From Candidatus Avelusimicrobium cornigerorum (GTDB taxonomy: Bacteria; Elusimicrobiota; Elusimicrobia; Elusimicrobiales; Elusimicrobiaceae): a stretch of 64,000 nt of DNA. Every line of letters begins with the position of its first letter. Within the stretch, counting starts at the first letter, position 1. The notes under the pieces are model-generated. The model searched no databases and had not been told where the DNA came from. It was given only the letters and a program-made list of their open reading frames with translations. The stretch lies in assembly GCA_002309715.1 (NCBI GenBank), contig DBXW01000005.1:321613-385612 (forward strand), read 5' to 3'. Both the position numbers and the translations under genes were made by a program. Positions 10,964 to 23,621 of the stretch are shown here, in pieces.

Positions 10964-10997
10964 GCGACACTATGTTGTCGCGCGGGTTTGTTATCCT
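10964..10997 (+). promoter_or_regulatory. WYL-activator box and promoter, site 1
   Basis: GCGACA-CTATGT-TGTCGC, then GCGGGTTTGT, then TATCCT. Confidence 0.8.
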
Positions 10998-11031
10998 ATA
11001 GGTGTAGTAAAAACTAGATAGGAGAACAACT

Positions 11032-11145
11032 ATGGCTGAACAAAAATACGAATGTAGCAAATGCCGTCAGATGTTTACGTTTACTTTTCCACCTGCCGGG
11101 ATGAAATGCCCGTCTTGCGGTGGGCCACTCTATCGTAGAGGGTAA
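11032..11145 (+). CDS. 37-aa zinc-ribbon microprotein (not in the ORF track)
   Basis: MAEQKYECSKCRQMFTFTFPPAGMKCPSCGGPLYRRG; two CxxC pairs; GGAG RBS. Confidence 0.7.
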   Translation: MAEQKYECSKCRQMFTFTFPPAGMKCPSCGGPLYRRG

Positions 11146-11152
11146 AGTAGAT

Positions 11153-11178
11153 GCCCCGGTCATCACGGGGACCGGGGC
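11153..11178. other. GC-rich hairpin without U-tract
   Basis: GCCCCGGTC-ATCACGGG-GACCGGGGC, 9-bp stem. Confidence 0.6.
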
Positions 11179-11221
11179 TACAAATCGTTAATATGTGGTA
11201 TCATAGGTTTAAGAGGTGCTT

Positions 11222-12688
11222 ATGAATTTATCCAAATCACAATACACAAAATACCGCAGTTGCCCTAAACGCTTGTGGCTGTCCCGCAATAAAAAGGAGG
11301 TGCTAACTCCGCCAAGTCCCGCTTTGCAGAAAATCTTTGATAGAGGACACCAAATCGGCGAACTGGCTTGGAAACGCTTTCCGGGTGGGGTGCTGGTCAA
11401 AGACGGCTACCAAAATCCGCAAGAGGCCATTAAACGCACGCAGGAACTCATGGCGCAAGGTGTTCCGGCTATCTACGAGGCCGCTTTTGCCTATAACGGT
11501 ATTTTGGTATTTGTGGATATTTTGGAAAAAACGCCAACCGGATGGAATTTAGTGGAAGTAAAAAGTAGCGGACGCAAAATTGATCCCATTTATGTGGACG
11601 ACATCTCTATCCAGCGCTATGTGCTTACGCATTGTGGGGTTACGCCGGAGAATTGTTATTTAATGCATATCAATAGCGACTATTTTATGGAAACGGACGA
11701 GCCGGATATAAAACAACTTTTCCTTTTAACACCTATGGATAGCGAACTATTTTCAGATGAGAATATTGAGGAAAATTTAGACGCTATTAAGAAATTACTA
11801 GCGGGCCCTGAGCCGACCGCCGAACTGGATAAAAGTGGGTGTGCGGATTGTGAGTGCCACGACTATTGTTGGAAAGATATTCCGCAAGATTCCGTGTTTG
11901 CCTTGTTACGCGGCAACCGGGCGCGGGAATTTATGGCGCAGGGAATTGTGCGTGTAGCGGATTTGCCGCCGAATAGTTTTGATAATGAAAAATGTAACCG
12001 TTGGGTAGAGGTGTTACGCACCGGGAAACCCTATATTGACCATGCGGCGGTGGCGGCGTGGCTTAATAAACTGGAGTACCCGCTTTATTATTTGGATTTT
12101 GAGACGACGCAACCCGTTGTCCCTTTGTGGAAATACTCGCGGCCCTATCAGCAAATCCCGTTCCAATTCTCGCTCCACGTGCAACGCGAGCCGAACGGTA
12201 AATTTGAGCATTATGAGTATCTTTCTATTGGTAAAGAAGATCCGCGCTATGGTTGCGTGGAGGCCTTGCTTAAATATATCGGCAATAGTGGCACTATATT
12301 GGCTCACTTTATGACTTTTGAGAAGGGGCGTATTAGCGAAATGGCGCACGACTTGCCCATCCCCGAAAAGGATGCTAAACGGCTTTTGGACATGACGGAA
12401 CGCTTTATGGACACCGGCACTCCTTTTAAACAGGATTATTTACACCCCAAAATGCATTGTAGTTGGTCTATCAAAAAGGTTTTGCCCGCCCTTGTGCCGG
12501 ATATGACTTACGAAGGCATGGCAGTTGCCAACGGTGGGGATGCCATGGATGCCTTTGACGTGTTATACGCGCAGAAACTGCCACCTGCCGAGTTAGAGCA
12601 ACTACGCAAAGATTTGCTTAAATATTGCGAGCAAGACACATGGGCCATGGTCAAAATCGTGGATGTGTTACGGGATAGTGTCGCATAA
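11222..12688 (+). CDS. DUF2779 protein (PD-(D/E)XK-like N-terminus, RNase H-like C-terminus)
   Basis: LSKSQY..YRSCPKRLWL, VDIL..LVEVKSS, YLDFET, QQIPFQFSLH, YCEQDT. Confidence 0.85.
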   Translation: MNLSKSQYTKYRSCPKRLWLSRNKKEVLTPPSPALQKIFDRGHQIGELAWKRFPGGVLVKDGYQNPQEAIKRTQELMAQGVPAIYEAAFAYNGILVFVDILEKTPTGWNLVEVKSSGRKIDPIYVDDISIQRYVLTHCGVTPENCYLMHINSDYFMETDEPDIKQLFLLTPMDSELFSDENIEENLDAIKKLLAGPEPTAELDKSGCADCECHDYCWKDIPQDSVFALLRGNRAREFMAQGIVRVADLPPNSFDNEKCNRWVEVLRTGKPYIDHAAVAAWLNKLEYPLYYLDFETTQPVVPLWKYSRPYQQIPFQFSLHVQREPNGKFEHYEYLSIGKEDPRYGCVEALLKYIGNSGTILAHFMTFEKGRISEMAHDLPIPEKDAKRLLDMTERFMDTGTPFKQDYLHPKMHCSWSIKKVLPALVPDMTYEGMAVANGGDAMDAFDVLYAQKLPPAELEQLRKDLLKYCEQDTWAMVKIVDVLRDSVA

Positions 12689-12708
12689 TTAGGAAATCTT
12701 AAGAAAAT

Positions 12709-12743
12709 AATACCGGGTGACAAGGAAATTGCCACCCGGTATT
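12709..12743. terminator. Probable bidirectional terminator
   Basis: AATACCGGGTGACAA / TTGCCACCCGGTATT inverted repeat between convergent genes. Confidence 0.7.
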
Positions 12744-12767
12744 ATTCCATAGCTAATTTGCTTTGAA

Positions 12768-13784
12768 TTATTTTTTTTCTTTCTGCGAATATACTTCCGA
12801 TAGAGCTACTAATAATTCTTTCTTTTGCGTAAATTTACTCTCATTTTCTGAAATTTTTTTTCTCTTTGCATCGCTCGAAAGGAGATAATGTGCCAATCTA
12901 TGACAAGTGGGGCATAGCGTGACTAAATCGTCAACAGAAGTAATAATCAGCTCATCAGTAGTATATAATGGAGTTAAATGATGGGCTTCTGTAATTTTAT
13001 TTTGATATTGAAAGGCGCATTTGGGATTTTGGCACGTATACTTATCTATTTCTTTGCGTCGTGTAACAATTTTACTATTGCGTTTACGTGAGAGGATTCT
13101 AATTTCTTTACGTTCATTTTCTTCTCTCTTGAGTATTTCCCTTTGTTGTTCTCTTGAAATTTTTTTTCGTTCTTCTTCTGAAAAATTACTTCGATATTTG
13201 CTCCAAATTTCTTCACTTATTTTTAAGCATTCTTTGAAATTTTTGATATTCTTCTTTTTGAAAATAAATCTTTGAATTGCCGCATAGGATTTAATGTTTT
13301 CTGAAACATACTCATTTAAGGCTTCTTTTTTAAATACTGCGAGAATGGTGGTTTTTTTTATGTTTTGATAATGGAATGCAATTTTCCATTTGTACGATGC
13401 CCCTAGATCGATTTTATCAATTTTTTCTAATTCATTGTTTTGTGCAAATAGAATAATATTAATAATGTTTTGTTTTACCGTAGCAAAGGCAGATTCTGGA
13501 GAATTTCCATATTTGCTATACCAAGCATACTTGTCAGTATAGGTATATCCTTGTTTTTTATGTTCAGTTCCTATTTTTTGAGGATCTCGTTCATATACTC
13601 CAAATTTGAAAGAACTTCCACCCCAAATACTTCCCAATAATTCTAATCTTTTTTCAATCCAATAGGTGAATGAATTTTTATTACCAACGCATGTATATTG
13701 TTGAAGTGTCATGCTTTTTATTTTTTCTATAGGCCATTGTTTTTGAAATTCTAAAAATAATTCTTTTAGTGATTCTTCTTGCAT
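12768..13784 (-). CDS. HNH endonuclease with an McrB-N-like domain; putative modification-dependent restriction nuclease
   Basis: CQNPKC..EAHH..LVTLCPTCH HNH core; N-terminal WPIEKIKSMTL..SFTYWIE..GSIWGGSSFKFG; AT-rich. Confidence 0.7.
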   Translation of the reverse strand: MQEESLKELFLEFQKQWPIEKIKSMTLQQYTCVGNKNSFTYWIEKRLELLGSIWGGSSFKFGVYERDPQKIGTEHKKQGYTYTDKYAWYSKYGNSPESAFATVKQNIINIILFAQNNELEKIDKIDLGASYKWKIAFHYQNIKKTTILAVFKKEALNEYVSENIKSYAAIQRFIFKKKNIKNFKECLKISEEIWSKYRSNFSEEERKKISREQQREILKREENERKEIRILSRKRNSKIVTRRKEIDKYTCQNPKCAFQYQNKITEAHHLTPLYTTDELIITSVDDLVTLCPTCHRLAHYLLSSDAKRKKISENESKFTQKKELLVALSEVYSQKEKK

Positions 13785-13854
13785 ATCTTTCTCCTTTTAA
13801 TTTCTAATCTATTTTAATTATGTTATATTTGTTTGAATTGGGTGTGTCAACGTG

Positions 13855-14052
13855 TTATTTCCTCATACAGAACATGCTGTGGCTTGTCGATTCTACAAAG
13901 CATTCGATGTCGCCCAAATCGTAGCGGGCAATATTCGCTCCGGCGTATTGGGTAATCGTTTTAACTTGTTCCATTTTGATTTGGATTTGTGCCGCACCAT
14001 ATCCTACTCCGGCGGCCACAAGTAAGGCCAAAATTAAATAAATTTTCTTCAT
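13855..14052 (-). CDS. Small secreted/membrane protein
   Basis: MKKIYLILALLVAAG signal peptide; start overlaps the WYL stop (ATGA). Confidence 0.65.
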   Translation of the reverse strand: MKKIYLILALLVAAGVGYGAAQIQIKMEQVKTITQYAGANIARYDLGDIECFVESTSHSMFCMRK

Positions 14053-14969
14053 TTTACACTCCTTAAATAATCGTTTAAAACATCTTTTACACGTTTATGC
14101 ATAGACGTGGGAGAAATTACCTTAATATGCGGTAGCCAATGCAAAATGGTGGGGAGTATTTCTTCCTCTTTGGCGGCTTTGCACGAGAGGATTATGCGCC
14201 CGTCTTTGAGTTCCTTTTCTAGCTTTTGCAACGGAAAATAGTTTTTTTGTTTAAAGAAATGCGCGCACTCGGCCGATACTTCTAACTGCACCGATAAGGG
14301 GCGTTCCTTTTCAAACCATACATTCGTACTTTCTCGCAGGATTTTATCTATATTTTTATCGTATTTGAATGGTTTATTTGTGGCTTTGGCTGATGTAATT
14401 TTTTCCAAACGGAATTTAAGGAGTTTGTCATCAGTGGTAAGAGCCAAAAGATACCAAAAACCTTCCACCCACATTAACTTAAGCGGACGCATTAAATAGT
14501 CGGCCATTTTACCGCCCTTGTAGCATATTGTTACCCACTCACGCTCACGTACACATTCTTCCAAAGTGCGCGTAATAGGCGTATCTTTATACATTTCTCC
14601 GCTGTTCATTTTGATAAAGAAAGGGTTATCTTGCGGAGCGGCCAATAAGCGGTTTTTAAGCATGGCAAATGAATGACCGAAATTACCACCTAACGAGGAC
14701 GCCATATCACTCATAAGTACCAAAATAGATGCCTCGGCACTAGACAACTTCATTCGTTCTAACGAAAACCCTTCTTCAAATGCGTATACACCGGGATCAG
14801 GGTTCCACAGCGGGAAGTTGGCTTCTTGTATATCATTCATATCCCGCTGAATAGTGCGTACCGCTACACCAACTTCTGCCGCCATGTCTTTTAGGCGGAT
14901 GGCCCCCTTATCCAGGGCGTTAAGTTCATACAAAAGGCGAGTCAGTTTGTTGTGCATTTCTTTTTGCAT
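14049..14969 (-). CDS. wHTH-WYL-WCX transcriptional regulator (YafY/PafBC/DriD-like)
   Basis: GVAVRTIQRDM HTH; PLKL..GFWYLLA..KFRLEKI WYL domain; C-terminal WCX. Confidence 0.92.
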   Translation of the reverse strand: MQKEMHNKLTRLLYELNALDKGAIRLKDMAAEVGVAVRTIQRDMNDIQEANFPLWNPDPGVYAFEEGFSLERMKLSSAEASILVLMSDMASSLGGNFGHSFAMLKNRLLAAPQDNPFFIKMNSGEMYKDTPITRTLEECVREREWVTICYKGGKMADYLMRPLKLMWVEGFWYLLALTTDDKLLKFRLEKITSAKATNKPFKYDKNIDKILRESTNVWFEKERPLSVQLEVSAECAHFFKQKNYFPLQKLEKELKDGRIILSCKAAKEEEILPTILHWLPHIKVISPTSMHKRVKDVLNDYLRSVK

Positions 14970-14977
14970 AGTTACCT

Positions 14978-15091
14978 CTATTTATCCTTTAAACCTTCTA
15001 AAACGTCTTTATATTCAATAATGACTCTTTTAGCTATTTTTATCGTATTACTGGTTTTTTCTTTATCTTTTTTAGAATTGCTGTTAGTCAT
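14978..15091 (-). CDS. 37-aa peptide resembling a Phd-like antitoxin C-terminal helix (not in the ORF track)
   Basis: MTNSNSKKDKEKTSNTIKIAKRVIIEYKDVLEGLKDK; GAGG RBS; its stop overlaps the WYL RBS. Confidence 0.55.
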   Translation of the reverse strand: MTNSNSKKDKEKTSNTIKIAKRVIIEYKDVLEGLKDK

Positions 15092-15112
15092 ATTATCTAT
15101 CCTCTTACAAAA

Positions 15113-15162
15113 AGTATAGCACATAGCAGCGACAAGGTGTTGTCGCAACAGTTTGTTATTCT
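15113..15162. promoter_or_regulatory. WYL box site 2, a symmetric bidirectional promoter
   Basis: GCGACA-AGGTGT-TGTCGC (15129-46); TATTCT 10 bp to the right and minus-strand TATACT 10 bp to the left, both preceded by TGn. Confidence 0.82.
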
Positions 15163-15195
15163 AATCCTATGACGAATAAGGAAATGGAGTGCATT

Positions 15196-15636
15196 ATGCA
15201 GTTTAGTTTGTTTAAGTATTTTGACGCTATCTTGGACGGTGCAGAGCAAAACGGTCTGGCGGCGCTGGAACAACCGGAGGTAAAGAAAGCGCTTGCGGAA
15301 CTAGACAGTTTTTTGCCGCCTTTGTCCGACGTAGCCAAACTGGTGTTTAGTTATTACTATGTGTACCAGTTAAAGCCCCAGCCGTTGTTCATTTCGCAAC
15401 TTGAAAAGGACCTCAATGCGCCAACGCTATATTTGGAACACGAGAAAGTATGGCAAGAACTGGTGGATTTGGATTTATTGGTGCGGGTAATGGGGAGTGA
15501 ATATCTCATGCCGCGTAGCGTAATAGATGCGGTAGCGGTCATTGATTTGGAGTATTATTGGCCCAACGACCGCGTGATTATTGCGCCCGAGCATAAGAAA
15601 GAAGTATTTTGGCGGTGGATACATGGCCAAAAATGA
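15196..15636 (+). CDS. Hypothetical protein
   Basis: GGAG RBS before ATG 15196; first gene after WYL site 2. Confidence 0.7.
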   Translation: MQFSLFKYFDAILDGAEQNGLAALEQPEVKKALAELDSFLPPLSDVAKLVFSYYYVYQLKPQPLFISQLEKDLNAPTLYLEHEKVWQELVDLDLLVRVMGSEYLMPRSVIDAVAVIDLEYYWPNDRVIIAPEHKKEVFWRWIHGQK

Positions 15637-16504
15637 AATAATTTACGTGGCTAAACCCACTCGGTACACGGAGCAGACATACCCCGGACACACGAAATTT
15701 TATGAGCATTTTGTGTCGCAGTTGAGAGAATATCACGAAGTGCGCGCGCTGGAACTACCCGATATATGGGTGCGAGATTTTCTACCTGTGCAAAATGTGC
15801 AAACCGGAGAGCTATACCAACTCTTTTTTGACCCGCGCTATGCCAATTATACGCCTAAATTTACGGCGGCTATCCGCGAACAGGTACGGGGTGCTTTCCC
15901 GCGTGTTAAACCGTGTAATGTGCGTATAGACGGGGGAAATATCGTGCTGTCCCCTGGCAAAAAACGGGCATTTTGCTTGGAAAAACAAACGATTTTCCAT
16001 AAATCAAACCCCGGGCAAAAGGAACACGCGGAGCAAGAATTAAAGCGTGCGCTCGGTGTGCAGGAAATTTTATGGCTACCACAGCAAAAAGGCGACAAAA
16101 TCGGCCATATAGACGGGTATATCCAGTTTTTGGGAGATAATCTCATGGAAGGTGCGACAAACATTTTTGACGGAGATATTGCCCTTGAAACGTTGCTTGA
16201 TGATAAATCTAGCAATTTGTTAGCTAGTTTTCATCATTTTAAGACGGTGCCTTTGTTATGCCGGATAGACGAAAATAATTGGCTAAGTGCTAAAGGCCTT
16301 TACGTGAACTTTTTGGAAACGTCCCGCGCCGTTTTTGTGCCACAATTTAATTTGCCCGAAGATGACAAAATTGTTACTATAATGAAAAAGCACATCCATA
16401 AGCCGCTTGTGCGCGTGGATTGTGAACAAATATCGCAGTACGGCGGTGCGGTGCATTGTTTAACGAGGGAATATGAAAGATCAACAGTTGAAAAATATTT
16501 TTGA
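15623..16504 (+). CDS. Agmatine/peptidyl-arginine deiminase family protein
   Basis: WVRD, DGGN, GHIDG and GGAVHC catalytic motifs. Confidence 0.88.
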   Translation: MAKNEIIYVAKPTRYTEQTYPGHTKFYEHFVSQLREYHEVRALELPDIWVRDFLPVQNVQTGELYQLFFDPRYANYTPKFTAAIREQVRGAFPRVKPCNVRIDGGNIVLSPGKKRAFCLEKQTIFHKSNPGQKEHAEQELKRALGVQEILWLPQQKGDKIGHIDGYIQFLGDNLMEGATNIFDGDIALETLLDDKSSNLLASFHHFKTVPLLCRIDENNWLSAKGLYVNFLETSRAVFVPQFNLPEDDKIVTIMKKHIHKPLVRVDCEQISQYGGAVHCLTREYERSTVEKYF

Positions 16505-16952
16505 AGATGCCTTAAGACATGAATTAAGGCCGGCAGTCCAAAAGAAATTGGCGCAGTTGTATCCTGATATTAAATATGAATATTTTGAAAAGGAAGTACG
16601 ACGAATCGGTAAATTACGCAACAAAAAAAAAGGATTTAAGGATTTTGTGAGTTGGTATCTAGAACGTTGGGAAGCTGATGGAAGTGCTGTTTGCAAATAC
16701 TGCGGCATTAGTGAAAAAGAATGTGCGGAAATTTTACAACCGCTTACCAAACGGGCTAAAACGCGCAGCCAGCATTTAGAGATAGAACAGAAGAGCGCTA
16801 ATGATGGTTATAGTGAGAATAACTGTATTTTAGCATGTTATGTTTGTAACAATGCCAAAAGTGATTTTATGAGCGAGGATGAGTTTAAAAAACTTATTCC
16901 GGGTATCCAAGCGTTTTGGAAAAGTCAACGGGAAAAGAAAAAGCAAAATTAG
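16473..16952 (+). CDS. Small HNH-like zinc-binding endonuclease
   Basis: CKYCG..LEIEQK..GYSENNCILACYVCNNAKSD. Confidence 0.75.
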   Translation: MKDQQLKNIFEDALRHELRPAVQKKLAQLYPDIKYEYFEKEVRRIGKLRNKKKGFKDFVSWYLERWEADGSAVCKYCGISEKECAEILQPLTKRAKTRSQHLEIEQKSANDGYSENNCILACYVCNNAKSDFMSEDEFKKLIPGIQAFWKSQREKKKQN

Positions 16953-16976
16953 TTTTTTTAAGTAGTTTTTTATTTC

Positions 16977-17008
16977 AAAAGACCTAGGTTTTGGCCTAGG
17001 TCTTTTTT
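16977..17008 (+). terminator. Intrinsic terminator
   Basis: AAAAGACCTAGG / CCTAGGTCTTTT followed by a T-run. Confidence 0.75.
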
Positions 17009-17018
17009 GTGACTTTTG

Positions 17019-17054
17019 TTGCGACATAGTGCTGTCGCAAGGGTTTGTTATCCT
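17019..17054 (+). promoter_or_regulatory. WYL box site 3
   Basis: TTGCGACA-TAGTGC-TGTCGCAA; TATCCT 10 bp after TGTCGC. Confidence 0.82.
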
Positions 17055-17087: not shown

Positions 17088-19082
17088 ATGGAATACACTT
17101 ACGAACAATACGAGGCATTTTACTACCTACACAAGCTGTTGCCCTATCTGCAAAGTTTCGGCGATTTTGAAGATAATTTTTCTTGGTTTAGCCGGGCCTG
17201 TGGCCGTAAGCCTCTTATAGCATTTCGGCCCCTGAAAAAAGACACTCGGGAAGATCATATTAAATTTAATAAGAAGATCATTGAATTTTTGGATAAACAC
17301 GCACCTTGCTATTTGGAACAACCGCTATCCGTTCCCCGGAAAAATGTACGGGAATTGAGTAAACTGTTTGGCCTTTCCTCTCCCGAAGAAAATTTGGTAG
17401 CTTTTTTTACCCTTGCGCGTAGGAACCGTTTATTCAACAAAACGCTGCAGCGTTTTCAGCATGATTATTGCGAGAATAGGGAAGTGCTGGAATTAATAGC
17501 CGAAAAGACAGGGAATAATATCGGTTTTTTATTGAAATCCACTGCTCCGCTTATGAAATTGGGTATTTTACAGCGTCGGGGATATTCTGCGGACTATGCT
17601 GCCAGCCCGTGGCTGGAAGAATTTGTGAATAATCCGCATAAGGATTACGATGCCGTTTGTACGAGCATTTTGGGGAGCCCGACGACGTGCCAGGTTGCTC
17701 TTACTTCAAAAGACTTTAAATATGTGGAAGCGGCCGATTTGGCTTTGCGGCTTATGAAGCAAGCCAAACATACCAAAGGGTTTAATATTCTTTTATATGG
17801 TGTTCCCGGCACGGGAAAGACAAGTTTTGCCAAATATCTGGCTCAAGCGGCTAAACTCCGTTTGTACCCGGTAGGAGTATGTAATGAGGGGGAAGAAGAA
17901 AAAAATTATCGTTTGCAACAATTTTACCGCAAACAATATTTGTTGGAAAAAATAGATAATACGTGTATTCTTTTTGACGAGGGGGAAGATATGTTCTCTA
18001 GTTTGGAAACTCGTACCAATAAAATAGAAATCAATAATCTGTTGGAAAATAATGAAGTCCCTGTTATTTGGACGACCAATAAAATTCATCACATGGATCC
18101 GGCCTATATCCGGCGTTTTACGCTCGCGGTATGTTTTAACAAGCCTCCAATAGAAGTGCGCCAAAAAATTTGGAATAAGTACCTAACGGAAAATAAAATT
18201 ACATGCGGCAAGGAAGATACATTAAAACTTGCCAAAAAGTACGAAGTACCGCCATCCATGATTGCAGGGGCGGCGCAGGCGGCCCGTATGGCTAAAGGGG
18301 ATTTGAATACAGTTAAAGACCACCTGTCTTTTATGACGCAAGCTCTTAACGGCGGCTACAAAAAGCCGGAAGAAAACAAAAAAGAACATGAATTTTGCCC
18401 GGCGCTTATTCATGCGGATATAGATTTAAACGCATTGACTTCTCAATTAAAATGTTTGGGCCGTCTTAATTTCTCGCTTTGTTTGTATGGGGCTAGCGGG
18501 ACGGGTAAATCGGCTTACGCTCGGTATTTGGCCGATCAGTTAGGGTTAGATGTTTTGCACCGCAGAGCGTCGGATTTATTGTCTATGTGGGTTGGCGGAA
18601 CCGAGAAAAATATTGCCGAGGCATTCTCTGAGGCTAAGGAAGCCAAAGCTATGCTGATTTTTGATGAAGCCGATAGTTTCTTGCGTGATCGTTCTACGGC
18701 ATCACACTCATGGGAAGTGTCCGGCGTGAACGAAATGCTGACATGGATGGAGAGCCACCCCTATCCGTTTGTCTGTACGACCAATTTAATGGATACATTG
18801 GATCCGGCCAGTTTACGTCGGTTTAGTTTTAAGGTCAAATATGACTTTTTGACAAGAGAGCAGGTACAAGAAGCGTTTTCCTACTTTTTCGGCTTACATA
18901 TAACGCCTCGGCAAGTGGCGGGGTTAGATAAACTGACGCCCGGCGATTTTGCCCTTGTAAAGAACAAAGCCGAAATTTTGGGGAAAACTTCACAGTTTGA
19001 TGCCATCAGAGAAATGTTGGAAACCGAGCAAAAACTTAAACACAATTCCTATGGTAGCGGCATCGGTTTCCGCGTAAATTAA
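17088..19082 (+). CDS. AAA+ ATPase with two AAA modules
   Basis: GVPGTGKT/LFDE and GASGTGKS/LIFDEAD; DPAYIRRF and DPASLRRF Arg fingers. Confidence 0.9.
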   Translation: MEYTYEQYEAFYYLHKLLPYLQSFGDFEDNFSWFSRACGRKPLIAFRPLKKDTREDHIKFNKKIIEFLDKHAPCYLEQPLSVPRKNVRELSKLFGLSSPEENLVAFFTLARRNRLFNKTLQRFQHDYCENREVLELIAEKTGNNIGFLLKSTAPLMKLGILQRRGYSADYAASPWLEEFVNNPHKDYDAVCTSILGSPTTCQVALTSKDFKYVEAADLALRLMKQAKHTKGFNILLYGVPGTGKTSFAKYLAQAAKLRLYPVGVCNEGEEEKNYRLQQFYRKQYLLEKIDNTCILFDEGEDMFSSLETRTNKIEINNLLENNEVPVIWTTNKIHHMDPAYIRRFTLAVCFNKPPIEVRQKIWNKYLTENKITCGKEDTLKLAKKYEVPPSMIAGAAQAARMAKGDLNTVKDHLSFMTQALNGGYKKPEENKKEHEFCPALIHADIDLNALTSQLKCLGRLNFSLCLYGASGTGKSAYARYLADQLGLDVLHRRASDLLSMWVGGTEKNIAEAFSEAKEAKAMLIFDEADSFLRDRSTASHSWEVSGVNEMLTWMESHPYPFVCTTNLMDTLDPASLRRFSFKVKYDFLTREQVQEAFSYFFGLHITPRQVAGLDKLTPGDFALVKNKAEILGKTSQFDAIREMLETEQKLKHNSYGSGIGFRVN

Positions 19083-19095
19083 AGGAGAAAGAATT

Positions 19096-19881
19096 ATGAT
19101 AACAATGAAAGAACAAGCAGAGCAGTTCCGGAAACTTTTACACTATATGAATATGCCTAAAAAAGCAACCAATAATGGTATTGCAATCCCTTATGAAAAC
19201 TTGGCAAATGCGTGCATAGAGTTCGCACCCGGCGAGTGTTATAGTTTCTTCGGCAGTCAAGATACAAATACATTGTCTTGTTGGAAAACAAACTTACTGT
19301 TGAAATTATTGCAAAATGGGGTATCTGTCTGCGTGTTGGAAGGCGGCGATACTTTCCGGCACGATTTTGCAGAACTGGCTTGTTTGCAAGCCAAAATTGA
19401 TCCGGATATGATGTTGAGCGGACAGGGGGATGTGGAAGATTTTCAAGCGTTTACGCTTGGCCTTAAAGAAATCGCCCTATTCCCTATGGTATGGACGACG
19501 GATGAGGAAATTCCGTCAAACTTGAAAGGGCCAATGATTTGCGTAAAAAATATGACATTAGATGAGTGGCACGAGAACGCTGAAACGTTGTGGGTACAAG
19601 CCAGAGAGCGCAATGTGGTGCTATTTTTATTTGTAACTATACCACATTATGTGCCACTTAAATTTGATAGTTTATATCATCCGCATAAAATTATTGTGCC
19701 GGAAAATTTATCTTCCTATGTAGGGATGGTAAAAATGGAGCAAAGTGCCGGTTCCCCGTTAGAAAAGCAGCGGATGCAATTAGCACTTACTATCAAACAA
19801 ACAGAATCTTTTACGGTAGAGCATTTGTATTTTGATATTGACTCGCATTCCCGAGAGATTAGTGTGGCTTCACACATATAG
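19096..19881 (+). CDS. Degenerate DnaB/RecA-fold protein lacking a Walker A motif
   Basis: FAPGECYSF..GVSVCVLE..LACLQAKID..LSGQ..EDF follows the DnaB helicase pattern, but has no GKT. Confidence 0.5.
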   Translation: MITMKEQAEQFRKLLHYMNMPKKATNNGIAIPYENLANACIEFAPGECYSFFGSQDTNTLSCWKTNLLLKLLQNGVSVCVLEGGDTFRHDFAELACLQAKIDPDMMLSGQGDVEDFQAFTLGLKEIALFPMVWTTDEEIPSNLKGPMICVKNMTLDEWHENAETLWVQARERNVVLFLFVTIPHYVPLKFDSLYHPHKIIVPENLSSYVGMVKMEQSAGSPLEKQRMQLALTIKQTESFTVEHLYFDIDSHSREISVASHI

Positions 19882-19897
19882 CCATGGGAAGACTATT

Positions 19898-20569
19898 ATG
19901 AACAAATATCAAATGATCCGCAAGTGGAAACGCAGTAAAGAAGACGAAGATGTACAATTAGAGGCACTTTTTGACGCGTTGTATGCGCTTAAAAAGGTGA
20001 CAGAGGATGATTTATTTATTGAGTTGCACCTTAAGCGGCTTAGAGATAGAGGATATATTTATCCCAAGAGGGAAGCCGTGCGGCACTTTATGTGTTATCA
20101 ATTCGCCTACGAAGCAGAGCCATTTTTGGATAAAATGAACTGTTATCATCATAGCCCGATTGATTTGGCTAATCAAATTTATGAACGTATTTCCAAAGCC
20201 ATTGAACACGAAGATGAGGGCGTAGCATTTTATACATGTACGGGGGCTCCTGCTGTGATGGGCACGATCGTGTGCATGGGCAAAATGCAAGACGGAAAGT
20301 ATATCACTAATCCAACCGAAGGTGCGCCGCGCCAATTGGTGGACAAACTAACTCCCAACGATATTTTGATGTTTTTAACTAAATACGGCAAATGGCTCAA
20401 GGATCCGCTTCTGATGTTTGGCGTGTGGCGAACGTACGCTAAAAACAAGTATGGACCGTGGCTTATGTGCTTATGCCACCATTTGGGCACGGGCCGGCGT
20501 GAAGATTATTACGAGTATGCCTTTGATGCCGGATTAGATGCTATTGACTATATTGGCACGGAATTTTAA
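19898..20569 (+). CDS. Hypothetical protein
   Basis: 223-aa ORF continuing the operon. Confidence 0.7.
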   Translation: MNKYQMIRKWKRSKEDEDVQLEALFDALYALKKVTEDDLFIELHLKRLRDRGYIYPKREAVRHFMCYQFAYEAEPFLDKMNCYHHSPIDLANQIYERISKAIEHEDEGVAFYTCTGAPAVMGTIVCMGKMQDGKYITNPTEGAPRQLVDKLTPNDILMFLTKYGKWLKDPLLMFGVWRTYAKNKYGPWLMCLCHHLGTGRREDYYEYAFDAGLDAIDYIGTEF

Positions 20570-22988: not shown

Positions 22989-23573
22989 TTAATTCATTCT
23001 CACAAGTTTGGCTAAAATTTGGACGGACGCGTCTGCCGGGAACGGCTCATATTTGGACTTATTGTCCGATACCAACCGGTAGGCGGGGCCGTTTTCGGTG
23101 TTGTACCGCCCAAGGCGCTTAATTTTGAGCCCGTCTTCGCGGCGGCATAATACCACACTTCCAACAGAGGGCAACTGGCTAGTCTTACGGAACATTAGCA
23201 TATCCCCGTCACTAATAGACGGCTCCATAGAATCGCCCTTGGCCTTAATAAAAAACAAATCCTGCGTAGGGGTGGGCAAAAACTTAGTGGGCATATTCAC
23301 ATAGTCCACAATGTTTTCTTCGGCAAAAATGTCCGTATCCCCGCATTGGGCAAATCCGTAAAAGGGGATGGGGGTAAACTCATCCACGGGCCTGTGCGTG
23401 GCAATTAGCGCGTGCCCGTTACGCTCTAAAAAGTTTTCTTTAATCAGTTTGCGGATATGCACGTGCACGGTGCTGACCGATTTTAAGCCAACCACTTTAG
23501 CCAGTTCTGCCAAAGTGATTTGCGGGTTTTGTTGGACGAGTTCTAAAATTTGTTTTTGTTTTGCCGAAAGCAT
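22989..23573 (-). CDS. LexA-like S24 autopeptidase repressor
   Basis: wHTH; KGDSMEP (Ser) and KIKRL (Lys); FAQCG putative Cys-Gly cleavage site; GGAG RBS before ATG 23573. Confidence 0.88.
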   Translation of the reverse strand: MLSAKQKQILELVQQNPQITLAELAKVVGLKSVSTVHVHIRKLIKENFLERNGHALIATHRPVDEFTPIPFYGFAQCGDTDIFAEENIVDYVNMPTKFLPTPTQDLFFIKAKGDSMEPSISDGDMLMFRKTSQLPSVGSVVLCRREDGLKIKRLGRYNTENGPAYRLVSDNKSKYEPFPADASVQILAKLVRMN

Positions 23574-23621
23574 AGTGTTCTCCAATACAAACAGTATAAC
23601 TTTTTTTACGCGTTTAGTCAA

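What the first reader, a model, noticed from the sequence alone, without database searches (positions are those of the whole stretch)
10964..17054. WYL-activator regulon: three GCGACA-N6-TGTCGC boxes driving four PafBC-style promoters
Seen: the palindrome occurs at 10964, 15129 and 17021. Each copy is followed after exactly 10 bp by an extended -10 (TGn-TATCCT or TGn-TATTCT), with no consensus -35. Site 2 is symmetric and has a fourth -10 (TATACT) 10 bp away on the minus strand, pointing at the WYL gene itself. Known: mycobacterial PafBC promoters have the layout TGTCGG-N10-TA, and WYL factors such as PafBC and DriD are activated by ssDNA. Inference: this single WYL protein activates itself and three separate operons of nucleases, a deiminase and an ATPase when ssDNA appears through phage infection or DNA damage. 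That would be a compact inducible defence or damage-response module that I do not recognise as described.
Basis: partly seen in the sequence, partly recalled or inferred. Interest (0 to 1): 0.85.

Follow-up and report, generated by a model that had tools for sequence, protein, structure and literature searches.

The report
DriD-like WYL activator regulon, Elusimicrobia
A gut Elusimicrobium carries a conserved set of palindromic DNA boxes placed exactly 10 bp before weak promoters. They most likely let a DNA-damage/phage-sensing WYL regulator switch on itself and several operons of nucleases, an ATPase, a deiminase and a small membrane protein; the control logic is known from Caulobacter and mycobacteria, but these target genes have not been linked to it before.

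Summary

- **Boxes:** GCGACA-N6-TGTCGC occurs exactly three times in the window (0 expected). Each box lies 10 bp upstream of a TGn-TAnnCT -10 element with no -35.
- **Rest of the genome:** the 1.38-Mb genome (Elusimicrobiaceae) has its other boxes beside a paralogous WYL gene on another contig.
- **Relatives:** across 27 related stretches there are 74 boxes and 94 promoter arms. All keep TGTCGN-N10-TAnnnT in front of at least 15 unrelated genes.
- **Match to known systems:** this is the published PafBC grammar, tGTCgg(N10)tA(N3)T. It is also the DriD arrangement: a CGAC...GTCG palindrome over the -35 position at a fixed distance from the -10.
- **The regulator:** WYL1 is closest to DriD and PafBC, not to the repressors BrxR and CapW. 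It keeps DriD's two base-reading arginines.

Best reading (about 0.65): homodimeric, DriD-like, probably ssDNA-triggered activators. WYL1 would use N6 boxes and WYL2 N7 boxes.

The targets are a conserved lineage-specific module (AAA+ ATPase, small membrane protein, winged-helix protein, PAD-like deiminase, HNH, DUF2779 nuclease) plus dynamin-like GTPases.

The control mechanism is known. The phylum, the box spacing and the target genes are new. No expression or binding data could be obtained.

The parts
10964..10981 (.). Box 1: GCGACA-CTATGT-TGTCGC, candidate WYL1 binding palindrome
   Evidence: Exact match, 0 expected. The orthologous box is kept in front of the zinc-ribbon/DUF2779 operon in relatives.
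10989..10997 (+). P1 extended -10 (TGt-TATCCT), starting 10 bp after the box; no -35
   Evidence: Sequence; spacing statistics.
11032..11145 (+). 37-aa zinc-ribbon protein, first gene of the P1 operon
   Evidence: Weak zinc-ribbon Pfam matches. Found by tblastn at 58-100% identity at the same place in 10 relatives.
11222..12688 (+). Cas4/RecB-like PD-(D/E)XK nuclease fused to a DUF2779 (RNase H-like) domain
   Evidence: Pfam DUF2779 7.7e-37 and Cas_Cas4; PADLOC Cas4; NCBIfam TM0106 RecB-like. Cluster 2 is syntenic in 13 relatives.
13855..14052 (-). 65-aa protein with an N-terminal hydrophobic segment, co-transcribed after WYL1
   Evidence: ORF; cluster 4 follows the WYL gene in 10 relatives.
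14049..14969 (-). WYL1: wHTH-linker-WYL-WCX regulator, candidate box-binding activator
   Evidence: Pfam HTH_11/WYL/WCX. PDB profile search finds DriD 1.5e-5 and PafC 0.011, with no BrxR or CapW. Foldseek gives DriD 5e-14, PafBC 1.6e-13, CapW 2.5e-9, BrxR 1e-8. R38 and R42 are invariant and align with DriD's base-reading Arg37 and Arg41.
14978..15091 (-). 37-aa ORF between P2b and WYL1; an insertion unique to this genome
   Evidence: No tblastn match in any relative. In relatives the WYL ATG lies about 20 nt after the -10.
15113..15121 (-). P2b extended -10 (TGc-TATACT on the minus strand), 10 bp from box 2, pointing at WYL1
   Evidence: Sequence. The same TGTCGC-N10-TATACT precedes WYL1 orthologues in nearly all relatives.
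15129..15146 (.). Box 2: GCGACA-AGGTGT-TGTCGC, bidirectional
   Evidence: Exact match. It lies between divergent genes, so it cannot be a terminator.
15154..15162 (+). P2a extended -10 (TGt-TATTCT), 10 bp after box 2
   Evidence: Sequence; orthologous arms in relatives.
15196..15636 (+). c7: 146-aa protein of unknown function with a winged-helix subdomain; start overlaps the next gene
   Evidence: No Pfam, PADLOC or NCBIfam hit. AF2 model has pLDDT 83 and pTM 0.82, with no PDB match below E=0.4 except Z-alpha-like winged-helix fragments. Conserved before the PAD gene.
15623..16504 (+). PAD/agmatine-deiminase-family enzyme (short form, C-terminal GGAVHCLT Cys motif present)
   Evidence: Pfam PAD_porph 3.5e-25. 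Far below the NCBIfam aguA cut-off. 166 close homologues; the two that carry names are an Elusimicrobiaceae record and a JGI record, the rest are unnamed metagenome proteins.
16473..16952 (+). 159-aa HNH nuclease; a variable slot (HNH-type c8 or unrelated c12 in relatives)
   Evidence: Weak Pfam HNH match; synteny map.
16980..17009 (+). Intrinsic terminator (AGACCTAGG-loop-CCTAGGTCT-TTTTTT) ending the P2a operon just before box 3
   Evidence: Sequence. The same hairpin lies next to the orthologous box in relatives (flanks).
17021..17038 (.). Box 3: GCGACA-TAGTGC-TGTCGC
   Evidence: Exact match. An orthologous box precedes the AAA+ gene in 16 relatives.
17046..17054 (+). P3 extended -10 (TGt-TATCCT), 10 bp after box 3
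   Evidence: Sequence.
17088..19082 (+). 664-aa protein with two AAA+ modules and a specific N-terminal domain
   Evidence: Pfam AAA 3.7e-38 in two stretches; PADLOC IetA-like and NCBIfam IteA-like over the AAA domain only, far below cut-off.
19096..19881 (+). c10: 261-aa protein of unknown function, follows the AAA+ gene
   Evidence: No family hit; conserved in some relatives.
19898..20569 (+). c14: 223-aa protein of unknown function, last gene of the P3 operon
   Evidence: No family hit. In L009 and L011 it has its own box arm.

Best explanation
The boxes are operator-like binding sites for homodimeric wHTH-WYL-WCX transcription activators of the DriD/DdaA/PafBC type.

**How it most likely works**
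- The promoter-proximal half-site TGTCG(C/G) sits 10 bp upstream of a weak -10 hexamer (TATCCT, TATACT or TACACT), at about -28 to -23.
- The palindrome covers the place where a -35 would be, and no -35 is present. RNA polymerase with the housekeeping sigma should therefore need the bound regulator to use these promoters.
- By analogy with DriD and PafBC, single-stranded DNA from DNA damage or phage replication binds the WYL domain. This frees the wHTH domains to bind the box, and the factor recruits RNA polymerase.

**What is switched on in this genome**
- WYL1 (N6 boxes) would turn on itself, [zinc ribbon + Cas4/DUF2779 nuclease], [winged-helix protein + PAD-like deiminase + HNH], [double AAA+ ATPase + two unknown proteins], and a relocated 59-aa membrane protein on contig C5.
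- WYL2 (N7 boxes) would turn on itself (through a structured leader), two dynamin-like GTPases and a 409-aa protein.

**Shown versus inferred**
- Shown: the boxes, the fixed geometry, its conservation across species and across unrelated genes, the absence of a -35, and the protein's affinities.
- Inferred: binding by WYL1/WYL2, the sign of regulation, the ssDNA signal, the N6/N7 division of labour, and the biological role (damage response or phage defence).
For: 1. **Specificity.** There are 3 exact boxes in 64 kb against 0 in shuffles. Genome-wide, the only other CGACA-N6/7-TGTCG boxes lie beside the WYL2 gene on C5, plus one degenerate repeat copy on C7.
2. **Geometry.** In the window, the C5 locus and 19 relatives, 83 of 132 box flanks have TAnnnT exactly 11 nt after TGTCG, and no other offset exceeds 18. 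With more loci there are 74 boxes, 94 arms and 83 unique sequences. The N10 spacer sequence varies while its length does not.
3. **Different spacings, same arm.** The same arm geometry is kept at N6 and at N7 palindromes. This points to a fixed contact between the proximal subunit and RNA polymerase.
4. **No -35, and often no TG.** The best -35 match is at most 3 of 6 in all arms, and only 39 of 83 have the TG extension. The same genome does use canonical promoters: TTGACA-17-TACAAT at the third WYL locus and TTGACA-17-TATAAC for the inserted HNH gene. TTGACA is enriched at 16-18 bp spacing.
5. **Published grammar.** PafBC: tGTCgg(N10)tA(N3)T (PMC8635444). [quoted passage not shown] The didA oligo reads TGTCGC followed 9-10 bp later by the -10 (PMC13004042).
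6. **The protein.** The PDB profile search finds DriD, then PafC, and no BrxR or CapW. Foldseek ranks DriD and PafBC about 5 orders of magnitude ahead of CapW and BrxR. DriD's base-reading Arg37 and Arg41 (PMC10853764) align with WYL1 R38 and R42, invariant in 13 homologues. Aromatic and Arg residues aligning with DriD's ssDNA contacts Y168, R207 and Y240 are conserved (Y150, R187, W218).
7. **Regulon logic.** In distant relatives the targets form one operon, AAA+-TM62-c7-PAD-c12-DUF2779, divergent from the WYL gene with two boxes. In this genome the operon is split into three, and each piece has its own box. The small membrane protein has moved to another contig and still has a box with the same geometry.
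8. **Gene placement.** The -10 elements lie 17-40 nt before Shine-Dalgarno/ATG pairs, and a strong terminator precedes box 3.
Against: - There are no transcript, TSS or binding data.
- About half of the arms carry an extended -10 (TGn), which can work without a -35. Those promoters could be constitutive and repressed by a protein sitting on the -35 position.
- WYL regulators next to defence-like genes have so far been repressors (BrxR, CapW; PMC10853764 introduction), and those repressors also sense ssDNA (PMC11662680 abstract).
- Similarity to DriD is remote (19% identity; E about 1e-5). The AF2 model is poor in the linker/three-helix region (pLDDT below 50 for residues 74-125, pTM 0.37), which is the part DriD uses to touch RNA polymerase.
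- Half-site spacing differs from DriD: CGAC-N8/N9-GTCG here against CGAC-N7-GTCG.
- The exact box-to-(-10) distance in DriD promoters could only be read to within 1 bp from a published oligo.
- recA and other repair genes have no box, so this is not a general damage regulon.
Confidence: 0.65

Rival explanations
1. The WYL proteins are BrxR/CapW-like repressors. They sit on the palindrome over the -35 position of -35-independent extended -10 promoters and keep a defence island silent until ssDNA releases them.
For: - 39 of 83 arms, and all four window arms, have TGn before the -10.
- The neighbourhood is defence-like: the 12768-13784 HNH gene matches PD-T4-1 and a type IV restriction enzyme model, and the AAA+ protein matches IetA. 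GmrSD genes sit next to the WYL gene in L025, and dynamin-like GTPases at WYL2 loci.
- Published immunity-linked WYL factors are repressors that also sense ssDNA.
Against: - A repressor needs only to overlap the promoter. It does not explain a distance fixed to the base pair over 94 arms, 27 sequence stretches and at least 15 unrelated genes, kept even when the palindrome spacing changes.
- 44 of 83 arms have neither a -35 nor TG, and have non-consensus -10 hexamers (C at position 5 in 81%). Such promoters should be nearly silent without help.
- The protein is nearer to DriD and PafBC than to BrxR and CapW by sequence profile and by fold.
- The genome's third WYL locus shows what a repressor layout looks like here: a canonical TTGACA-17-TACAAT promoter flanked by operators.
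Confidence: 0.2
2. The boxes are bound by another factor, not by WYL1 or WYL2. Candidates are an unrelated HTH protein or, in relatives, the HTH-TPR protein c5. The linkage with WYL genes would then be synteny only.
For: c5, found in 9 relatives, has the same R-T-x-Q-R recognition helix, so more than one protein family can probably read CGAC/GTCG boxes.
Against: - c5 is absent from this genome although the boxes are intact.
- Every box in the genome lies at a WYL locus, or at a gene that belongs to the WYL operon in relatives.
- N7 boxes follow the WYL2 clade and N6 boxes the WYL1 clade.
- The base-reading arginines of DriD, which read the same CGxC core, are invariant in WYL1.
Confidence: 0.07
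3. The palindromes act at the RNA level as intrinsic terminators or attenuator hairpins (stem GCGACA/TGTCGC followed by GGGTTTGTT), not as protein sites.
For: - The consensus scan lists boxes 1 and 3 as terminator-like.
- One box class in relatives (GGGCGACA...TGTCACCC plus a U-tract) forms a 9-bp hairpin with a G-U pair on the transcribed strand, at the end of the DUF2779-c5 operon.
Against: - Box 2 and the C5 N7 box lie between divergent genes with nothing upstream to terminate.
- The same 5-nt half-sites recur at every site and in every species, instead of covarying.
- Box 3 is already preceded by a strong terminator.
- A hairpin does not explain the fixed 10 bp to a -10 on either side.
- At most this is a secondary insulating role at some sites.
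Confidence: 0.03

Closest known systems
DriD of Caulobacter crescentus (homodimeric wHTH-3HB-WYL-WCX activator; PMC9186387, PMC10853764, PMC13004042)
   Same: - Best PDB match by sequence profile and by fold.
- The base-reading Arg pair is conserved.
- The site is a palindrome with a CGAC...GTCG core that covers the -35 position at a constant distance from the -10, in promoters without a -35.
- A bidirectional promoter lies between the regulator and an uncharacterised operon.
- The regulon is small and holds nucleases and a small membrane protein (didA there, a 59-62-aa TM protein here).
   Different: - Half-site spacing is CGAC-N8-GTCG (WYL1) or N9 (WYL2) instead of N7.
- Identity is only about 19%.
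- The target genes are unrelated: no didA, bapE, recJ or dnaG homology was seen.
- Here the regulator's own promoter arm has full geometry in nearly all species, whereas DriD does not activate driD.
- Phylum Elusimicrobiota.
PafBC of mycobacteria (sigma adaptation; PMC8635444, PMC11804915)
   Same: - The promoter grammar is the same: tGTCgg(N10)tA(N3)T against TGTCG(C/G)-N10-TAnnnT, with no -35.
- WYL/WCX architecture; second-best structural match.
- An ssDNA-activated activator.
   Different: - PafBC is a PafB/PafC heterodimer that reads one non-palindromic half-site and binds DNA only together with RNA polymerase.
- Its regulon is about 150 genes including recA, and it is linked to the Pup-proteasome locus.
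- Here the sites are palindromes, the regulators are single genes, the regulon is small and recA has no box.
DdaA of Acinetobacter (WYL activator of aciT and DNA-damage genes; PMC13010146)
   Same: A homodimeric WYL activator in a lineage without LexA. It uses a DriD-like CGAC-N7-GTCG motif and induces a small membrane-anchored division inhibitor. In this genome the only S24/LexA-like repressor lies in an adjacent mobile element.
   Different: DdaA controls recA, ssb and uvrA. Here no repair gene carries a box. Sequence relationship to DdaA was not tested.
BrxR and CapW (WYL repressors of BREX and CBASS; PMC9122601, PMC11662680)
   Same: wHTH-WYL-WCX architecture, palindromic sites at a divergent promoter next to the regulator gene, defence-like neighbourhood, and ssDNA sensing (CapW).
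   Different: - No BREX or CBASS genes are present.
- These proteins are not recovered by the sequence profile search and score about 10^5-fold weaker by fold.
- Their operators are not reported to keep a base-pair-exact distance to a -35-less -10.

Membership tests
DriD-type homodimeric WYL activators (class A wHTH-WYL-WCX) | Domain order wHTH, linker/three-helix bundle, WYL (Sm-like), WCX dimer domain | tested here: met
   Pfam HTH_11, WYL and WCX. The alignment with DriD is full length. The AF2 model has a long helical segment at 77-109 between the HTH and WYL domains, but at low confidence.
DriD-type homodimeric WYL activators (class A wHTH-WYL-WCX) | Recognition helix with two arginines that read the guanines of CGxC (DriD Arg37, Arg41) | tested here: met
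   WYL1 R38 and R42 (motif R-T-I-Q-R) align with DriD R37 and R41. Both are invariant in 13 WYL1/WYL2 homologues.
DriD-type homodimeric WYL activators (class A wHTH-WYL-WCX) | Pseudo-palindromic target CGAC(N7)GTCG | tested here: inconclusive
   The core half-sites are the same, but the spacing is CGAC-N8-GTCG (WYL1 clade, over 60 boxes) or N9 (WYL2 clade). This is a spacing variant.
DriD-type homodimeric WYL activators (class A wHTH-WYL-WCX) | Site overlaps the -35 position, lies at a constant distance from the -10, and the promoter lacks a -35 | tested here: met
   83 of 132 flanks are at one offset. The -35 match is at most 3 of 6 in all 83 unique arms.
DriD-type homodimeric WYL activators (class A wHTH-WYL-WCX) | ssDNA binding to the WYL domain switches on DNA binding and activation | not testable with these tools
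   Only residue conservation is available: Y150, R187 and W218 align with DriD Y168, R207 and Y240. The R176/R178 region aligns ambiguously.
DriD-type homodimeric WYL activators (class A wHTH-WYL-WCX) | Target genes are induced (not derepressed) in a regulator-dependent way after DNA damage | not testable with these tools
PafBC | Promoter motif tGTCgg(N10)tA(N3)T with no -35 | tested here: met
   All 7 arms in this genome and 94 arms overall fit TGTCGN-N10-TAnnnT. The consensus is from PMC8635444.
PafBC | Heterodimer of adjacent or fused PafB and PafC, with a non-palindromic single half-site | tested here: not met
   The WYL genes are single, and the paralogues lie on different contigs. The sites are two-fold symmetric.
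PafBC | Controls recA and the bulk of DNA repair genes | tested here: not met
   recA lies at C3:386858 with no box or half-site arm nearby.
BrxR/CapW-type WYL repressors | Encoded with, and repressing, a BREX or CBASS (or other recognised defence) operon | tested here: not met
   PADLOC finds no BREX or CBASS components. The only hits are Cas4-like, PD-T4-1-like and IetA-like (AAA domain only).
BrxR/CapW-type WYL repressors | Closest sequence and structure relatives are BrxR or CapW | tested here: not met
   They are absent from the profile search at E<=10. Foldseek E is 2.5e-9 to 1e-8, against 5e-14 for DriD.

The most novel reading that the evidence does not exclude
The box-driven AAA+ / small TM / winged-helix / PAD-like deiminase / (HNH or c12) / DUF2779 nuclease operon is a previously unrecognised ssDNA-induced anti-phage or self-destruct system. 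Together with the dynamin-like GTPases under WYL2, it would be switched on by activator-type WYL factors. That would break the current rule that immunity-linked WYL factors are repressors. It would also show that TGTCG(C/G)-N10-TAnnnT is an ancient promoter code for WYL activators, shared by Actinomycetota, Pseudomonadota and Elusimicrobiota.
Probability: 0.3. Interest if true: 0.75.

Novelty: new variant of a known kind. Interest (0 to 1): 0.5.

Why it matters
- **A promoter code that can be searched for.** The same half-site-to-(-10) geometry now appears with WYL factors in three distant phyla. This suggests the contact between the promoter-proximal wHTH and RNA polymerase is ancient, so WYL-activator regulons could be predicted from sequence alone by searching TGTCGS-N10-TAnnnT next to WYL genes.
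- **A test of the activator/repressor divide.** The literature currently separates 'activators for DNA damage' from 'repressors for immunity'. This locus has activator-type promoters in front of defence-like and wholly uncharacterised genes, so it is a good place to test that divide.
- **A functional handle on unknown proteins.** Co-induction, probably by ssDNA, links a conserved module whose members are little studied (DUF2779/Cas4-like nuclease, a short PAD-family enzyme, a double AAA+ ATPase, a small membrane protein).
- **A possible alternative to SOS.** This occurs in a small-genome gut lineage that seems to lack a chromosomal LexA.
- **A natural spacing experiment.** The N6/N7 pair of paralogues shows how half-site spacing could separate two regulons that share one recognition helix.

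Tried and rejected
- The genome search worked once and was then closed. The planned phylum-wide motif scan and the own-genome Pfam searches for LexA and WYL domains could not be run.

**Searches that found little or nothing**
The only S24 repressor is in the adjacent mobile element. The sensitivity of this test is limited.
- PADLOC and NCBIfam do not recognise the module as a known defence system.
- A literature search for DUF2779 gave nothing functional. A search for Elusimicrobia plus WYL gave nothing relevant.
- c7: a good AF2 model, but no significant PDB neighbour.
- Rfam has no family for the WYL2 leader.

**Readings considered and rejected**
- Terminator reading of the boxes (raised): rejected for the reasons given under rivals.
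- A Bacteroidota-type promoter (TTTG/-7 motif) for the GGGTTTG spacer: rejected because the genes have strong Shine-Dalgarno sites and the organism is an Elusimicrobium.
- The upstream half-site GCGACA acting as a -35: rejected because it lies 22 bp from the -10.

**Limits on two claims**
- The exact box-to-(-10) distance in DriD promoters could not be fixed better than 9-10 bp, because the figure is not held.
- Covariation tests on the boxes themselves would be circular, since the boxes were found by searching for the palindrome, so none is claimed.

Full report
**1.

The pattern GCGACA-N6-TGTCGC occurs at 10964, 15129 and 17021 and nowhere else in the window. 100 dinucleotide-preserving shuffles gave no match, and allowing two mismatches adds nothing. 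Read directly, each box is followed after exactly 10 bp by a TAnnnT hexamer preceded by TGn:
- P1: TGTCGC-GCGGGTTTGT-TATCCT
- P2a: TGTCGC-AACAGTTTGT-TATTCT
- P3: TGTCGC-AAGGGTTTGT-TATCCT
- P2b, on the other side of box 2: TGTCGC-TGCTATGTGC-TATACT, aimed at the WYL gene

Shine-Dalgarno/ATG pairs follow 17-40 nt later. A strong terminator (16980-17009) separates the P2a operon from box 3. None of the four arms is called a -35/-10 promoter by the consensus scan.

**2. Genes**

Family searches give the following layout.
- P1 drives a 37-aa zinc ribbon and a Cas4/RecB-like nuclease fused to DUF2779.
- P2b drives a 37-aa ORF, WYL1 (HTH_11-WYL-WCX, 306 aa) and a 65-aa protein.
- P2a drives a 146-aa unknown protein (c7), a short PAD/agmatine-deiminase-family enzyme with the catalytic Cys motif, and a 159-aa HNH.
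- P3 drives a 664-aa double AAA+ protein and two unknown proteins.

The 338-aa HNH gene (12768-13784) lies in low-GC DNA and has its own canonical TTGACA-17-TATAAC promoter. It is an insert outside the regulon.

Upstream of 10 kb are transporters. From 21 kb a mobile element begins (AlbA_2, Bro-N, an S24 repressor, DUF5681, SIR2, a serine recombinase).

**3. The rest of the genome**

The genome has 1.38 Mb in 12 contigs and is 98.5% complete. It belongs to the Elusimicrobiaceae, and the closest named relative of WYL2 is Candidatus Avelusimicrobium.

A scan of the whole genome finds further boxes only on contig C5, around a second regulator, WYL2 (310 aa, 37% identical to WYL1):
- An N6 box lies in front of a 59-aa membrane protein.
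- A bidirectional N7 box (GCGACA-ACTCACT-TGTCGG) lies between WYL2 and two dynamin-like GTPases.
- An N7 box lies in front of a 409-aa gene.
- A degenerate copy of that last box sits in a 300-bp repeat on C7.

Every arm again reads TGTCG(C/G)-N10-TAnnnT with TG. Genome-wide, the count of TGTCGS-N10-TAnnnT is 28 against about 15 at other spacings, an excess that matches these sites.

A third, shorter WYL-like gene (C3:47069) has a different layout: a canonical TTGACA-17-TACAAT promoter flanked by GACA-N7-GTCG sites, which looks like a repressor arrangement.

recA is present without a box. No LexA was found apart from the S24 repressor of the mobile element.

**4. Comparative evidence**

Nineteen loci with WYL1 orthologues (55-93% identity) were fetched from other Elusimicrobiaceae genomes. 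Together with the window and the C5 locus they hold 66 boxes. Of the 132 flanks, 83 have TAnnnT exactly 11 nt after TGTCG, and no other offset exceeds 18.

Adding a distant locus and four WYL2 loci gives 74 boxes, 94 arms and 83 unique sequences:
- The -10 is TATCCT (23), TATACT (22) or TACACT (13).
- C occupies position 5 in 81% of arms.
- TG is present in 39 of 83.
- The best -35 match at 16-18 bp is never above 3 of 6.

The N10 sequence differs widely between promoter classes, for example GCGGGTTTGT, ACACCTTTTC, CCCTATGTGC and AAGAGAAAAC. It is the length, not the sequence, that is kept.

The arms precede at least 15 unrelated genes. These include WYL1, WYL2, c7, PAD, AAA+, the zinc ribbon, small ORFs, an ankyrin protein, c14, c25, GTPases and PDDEXK_4 nucleases.

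Boxes of the WYL2 clade are N7 in orthologues of 51-100% identity. Those of the WYL1 clade are N6. The proximal arm is identical in both.

**5. The targets form one system**

In distant relatives the genes form a single operon, AAA+-TM62-c7-PAD-c12-DUF2779, divergent from the WYL gene with two boxes in the 155-bp spacer. In the window's clade this operon has been cut into three, and each piece has acquired or kept its own box.

The small membrane protein has left the locus. It now sits on C5, 45% identical to the operon copy, still behind an N6 box. Co-regulation kept through rearrangement is the strongest sequence-only argument for a regulon.

The zinc ribbon is conserved in 10 relatives. The PAD-like enzyme has 166 close homologues; the two that carry names are an Elusimicrobiaceae record and a JGI record, and the rest are unnamed metagenome proteins.

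**6. Comparison with the literature**

- **PafBC.** The in vivo consensus is tGTCgg(N10)tA(N3)T, at -23 to -28, with no -35 (PMC8635444).
- **DriD.** It binds the pseudo-palindrome ATACGAC(N7)GTCGTAT (consensus oligo ATACGACAGTAACTGTCGTAT). [quoted passage not shown] In the published didA oligo, TGTCGC is followed 9-10 bp later by the -10. The exact figure could not be checked.
- **The DriD regulon.** It contains a small membrane division inhibitor (didA), an endonuclease (bapE), recJ, dnaG, and a bidirectional promoter between driD and an unknown operon.
- **DdaA of Acinetobacter.** This is a further case, with a DriD-like motif and a small membrane-anchored division inhibitor, in a lineage without LexA.
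- **SiwR.** It binds a 19-bp palindrome between the -35 and the -10.

**7. The protein**

- A single-sequence search of the PDB finds only DriD (E = 4.6e-4, full length).
- A 13-sequence profile finds DriD (1.5e-5), DriD C-domains, PafC (0.011) and PafBC. BrxR and CapW do not appear even at E<=10.
- The AF2 model is moderate (pLDDT 74.5, pTM 0.37, weak in residues 74-125). Foldseek ranks DriD (5e-14) and PafBC (1.6e-13) ahead of CapW (2.5e-9) and BrxR (1e-8).
- DriD reads its CGxC core with Arg37 and Arg41, helped by Thr38 and Glu40 (PMC10853764). WYL1 has R38-T39-I-Q41-R42 at the aligned positions, and R38, T39 and R42 are invariant in the family.
- Residues aligning with three DriD ssDNA contacts are conserved. 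A fourth region aligns ambiguously.

**8. Reading**

The anatomy is that of a DriD-like activator system written in the PafBC promoter grammar. The sign of regulation is inferred from four things:
- the base-pair-exact geometry;
- the lack of a -35 in a genome that otherwise uses TTGACA;
- the many arms without TG;
- the protein's affinities.

The main rival is a repressor on extended -10 promoters. It keeps about 0.2, because the four window arms all have TG and the neighbourhood is defence-like. The ligand (ssDNA) and the role (damage response, abortive infection or defence) are analogies.

What the module does remains open. It combines a nuclease/exonuclease, an HNH, an unfoldase-like ATPase, a guanidino-group-modifying enzyme and a small membrane protein. 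This fits an induced DNA-processing or self-limiting response, and the membrane protein is a candidate DidA/AciT-like division inhibitor. None of this was tested.

**9. Limits**

- No expression or binding data were available.
- The related loci are mostly orthologous, so the 94 arms are not 94 independent events. Independence rests on the at least 15 unrelated downstream genes, the varied spacers and the N6/N7 contrast.

Noticed in passing
Own genome contig C5:66882-67074 (= L005:6883-7075), outside the window: A conserved leader RNA of about 175 nt lies between the N7 box promoter and the WYL2 start codon. It is nearly invariant in 8 loci although the WYL2 proteins are only 51-79% identical. 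RNAalifold on 3 sequences gives 49 pairs, 8 of them with compensatory changes. A hairpin loop (CCUUUGGAAU) is complementary to AUUCCAAAG 75 nt downstream, and L029 changes both sides (GGAGU/ACUCC), which suggests a pseudoknot. There is no Rfam match and only one copy in the genome. It is a candidate new cis-regulatory RNA.
   Followed up: partly
L006:8327-9376 (-) and orthologues in 8 other relatives; absent from the window genome: A 350-aa HTH-TPR protein follows the DUF2779 nuclease in relatives. Its recognition helix (SRRTIQRD) has the same R-T-x-Q-R motif as WYL1, but it has TPR repeats in place of the WYL/WCX domains. It may bind the same boxes with a different sensor.
   Followed up: partly
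window 12768-13784 (-) and its promoter near 13800-13830: A 338-aa HNH protein with an N-terminal PD-T4-1-like domain sits in a low-GC insert between the DUF2779 operon and the WYL1 operon. It has its own canonical TTGACA-17-TATAAC promoter and a shared bidirectional terminator at about 12712-12745. It is constitutive rather than box-driven.
   Followed up: partly
Own genome contig C3:47069-48200 (= L028:1070-2200), outside the window: A third, 262-aa WYL-like paralogue (28% identical over the N-terminal 173 residues) is followed by a canonical TTGACA-17-TACAAT promoter flanked by three GACA-N7-GTCG sites. This repressor-style layout contrasts with the WYL1/WYL2 promoters.
   Followed up: partly
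window 14978-15091 (-): A 37-aa Lys-rich ORF with its own Shine-Dalgarno site is inserted between the P2b promoter and WYL1. It is absent from all relatives, where the WYL ATG lies about 20 nt after the -10.
   Followed up: partly
Own genome C5:60421-68711 (= L005:422-8711): The WYL2 locus (409-aa protein, 236-aa protein, two dynamin-like GTPases, WYL2, 59-aa TM protein) is bracketed by tRNA-Ser and tRNA-Ala. The 300 bp after tRNA-Ser are 85% identical to the 300 bp after tRNA-Asp on C7, including a box copy, so this is probably an integrated island. WYL2 orthologues carry different cargo: three dynamin GTPases, HSR1-type GTPases or PDDEXK_4 nucleases.
   Followed up: partly
L006:8279-8294 and orthologous sites in L007, L009, L010, L011, L016: One class of box (GGGCGACA-N6-TGTCACCC) carries a one-sided change. 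On the transcribed strand this gives a 9-bp hairpin with a G-U pair followed by a U-tract. It probably doubles as the terminator of the DUF2779-c5 operon and as the promoter box for the next small gene.
   Followed up: no
window 22992-23621 (-): An HTH_24 + Peptidase_S24 repressor in the adjacent mobile element is the only LexA/CI-like protein detectable in the genome by tblastn. A chromosomal LexA seems to be missing.
   Followed up: partly
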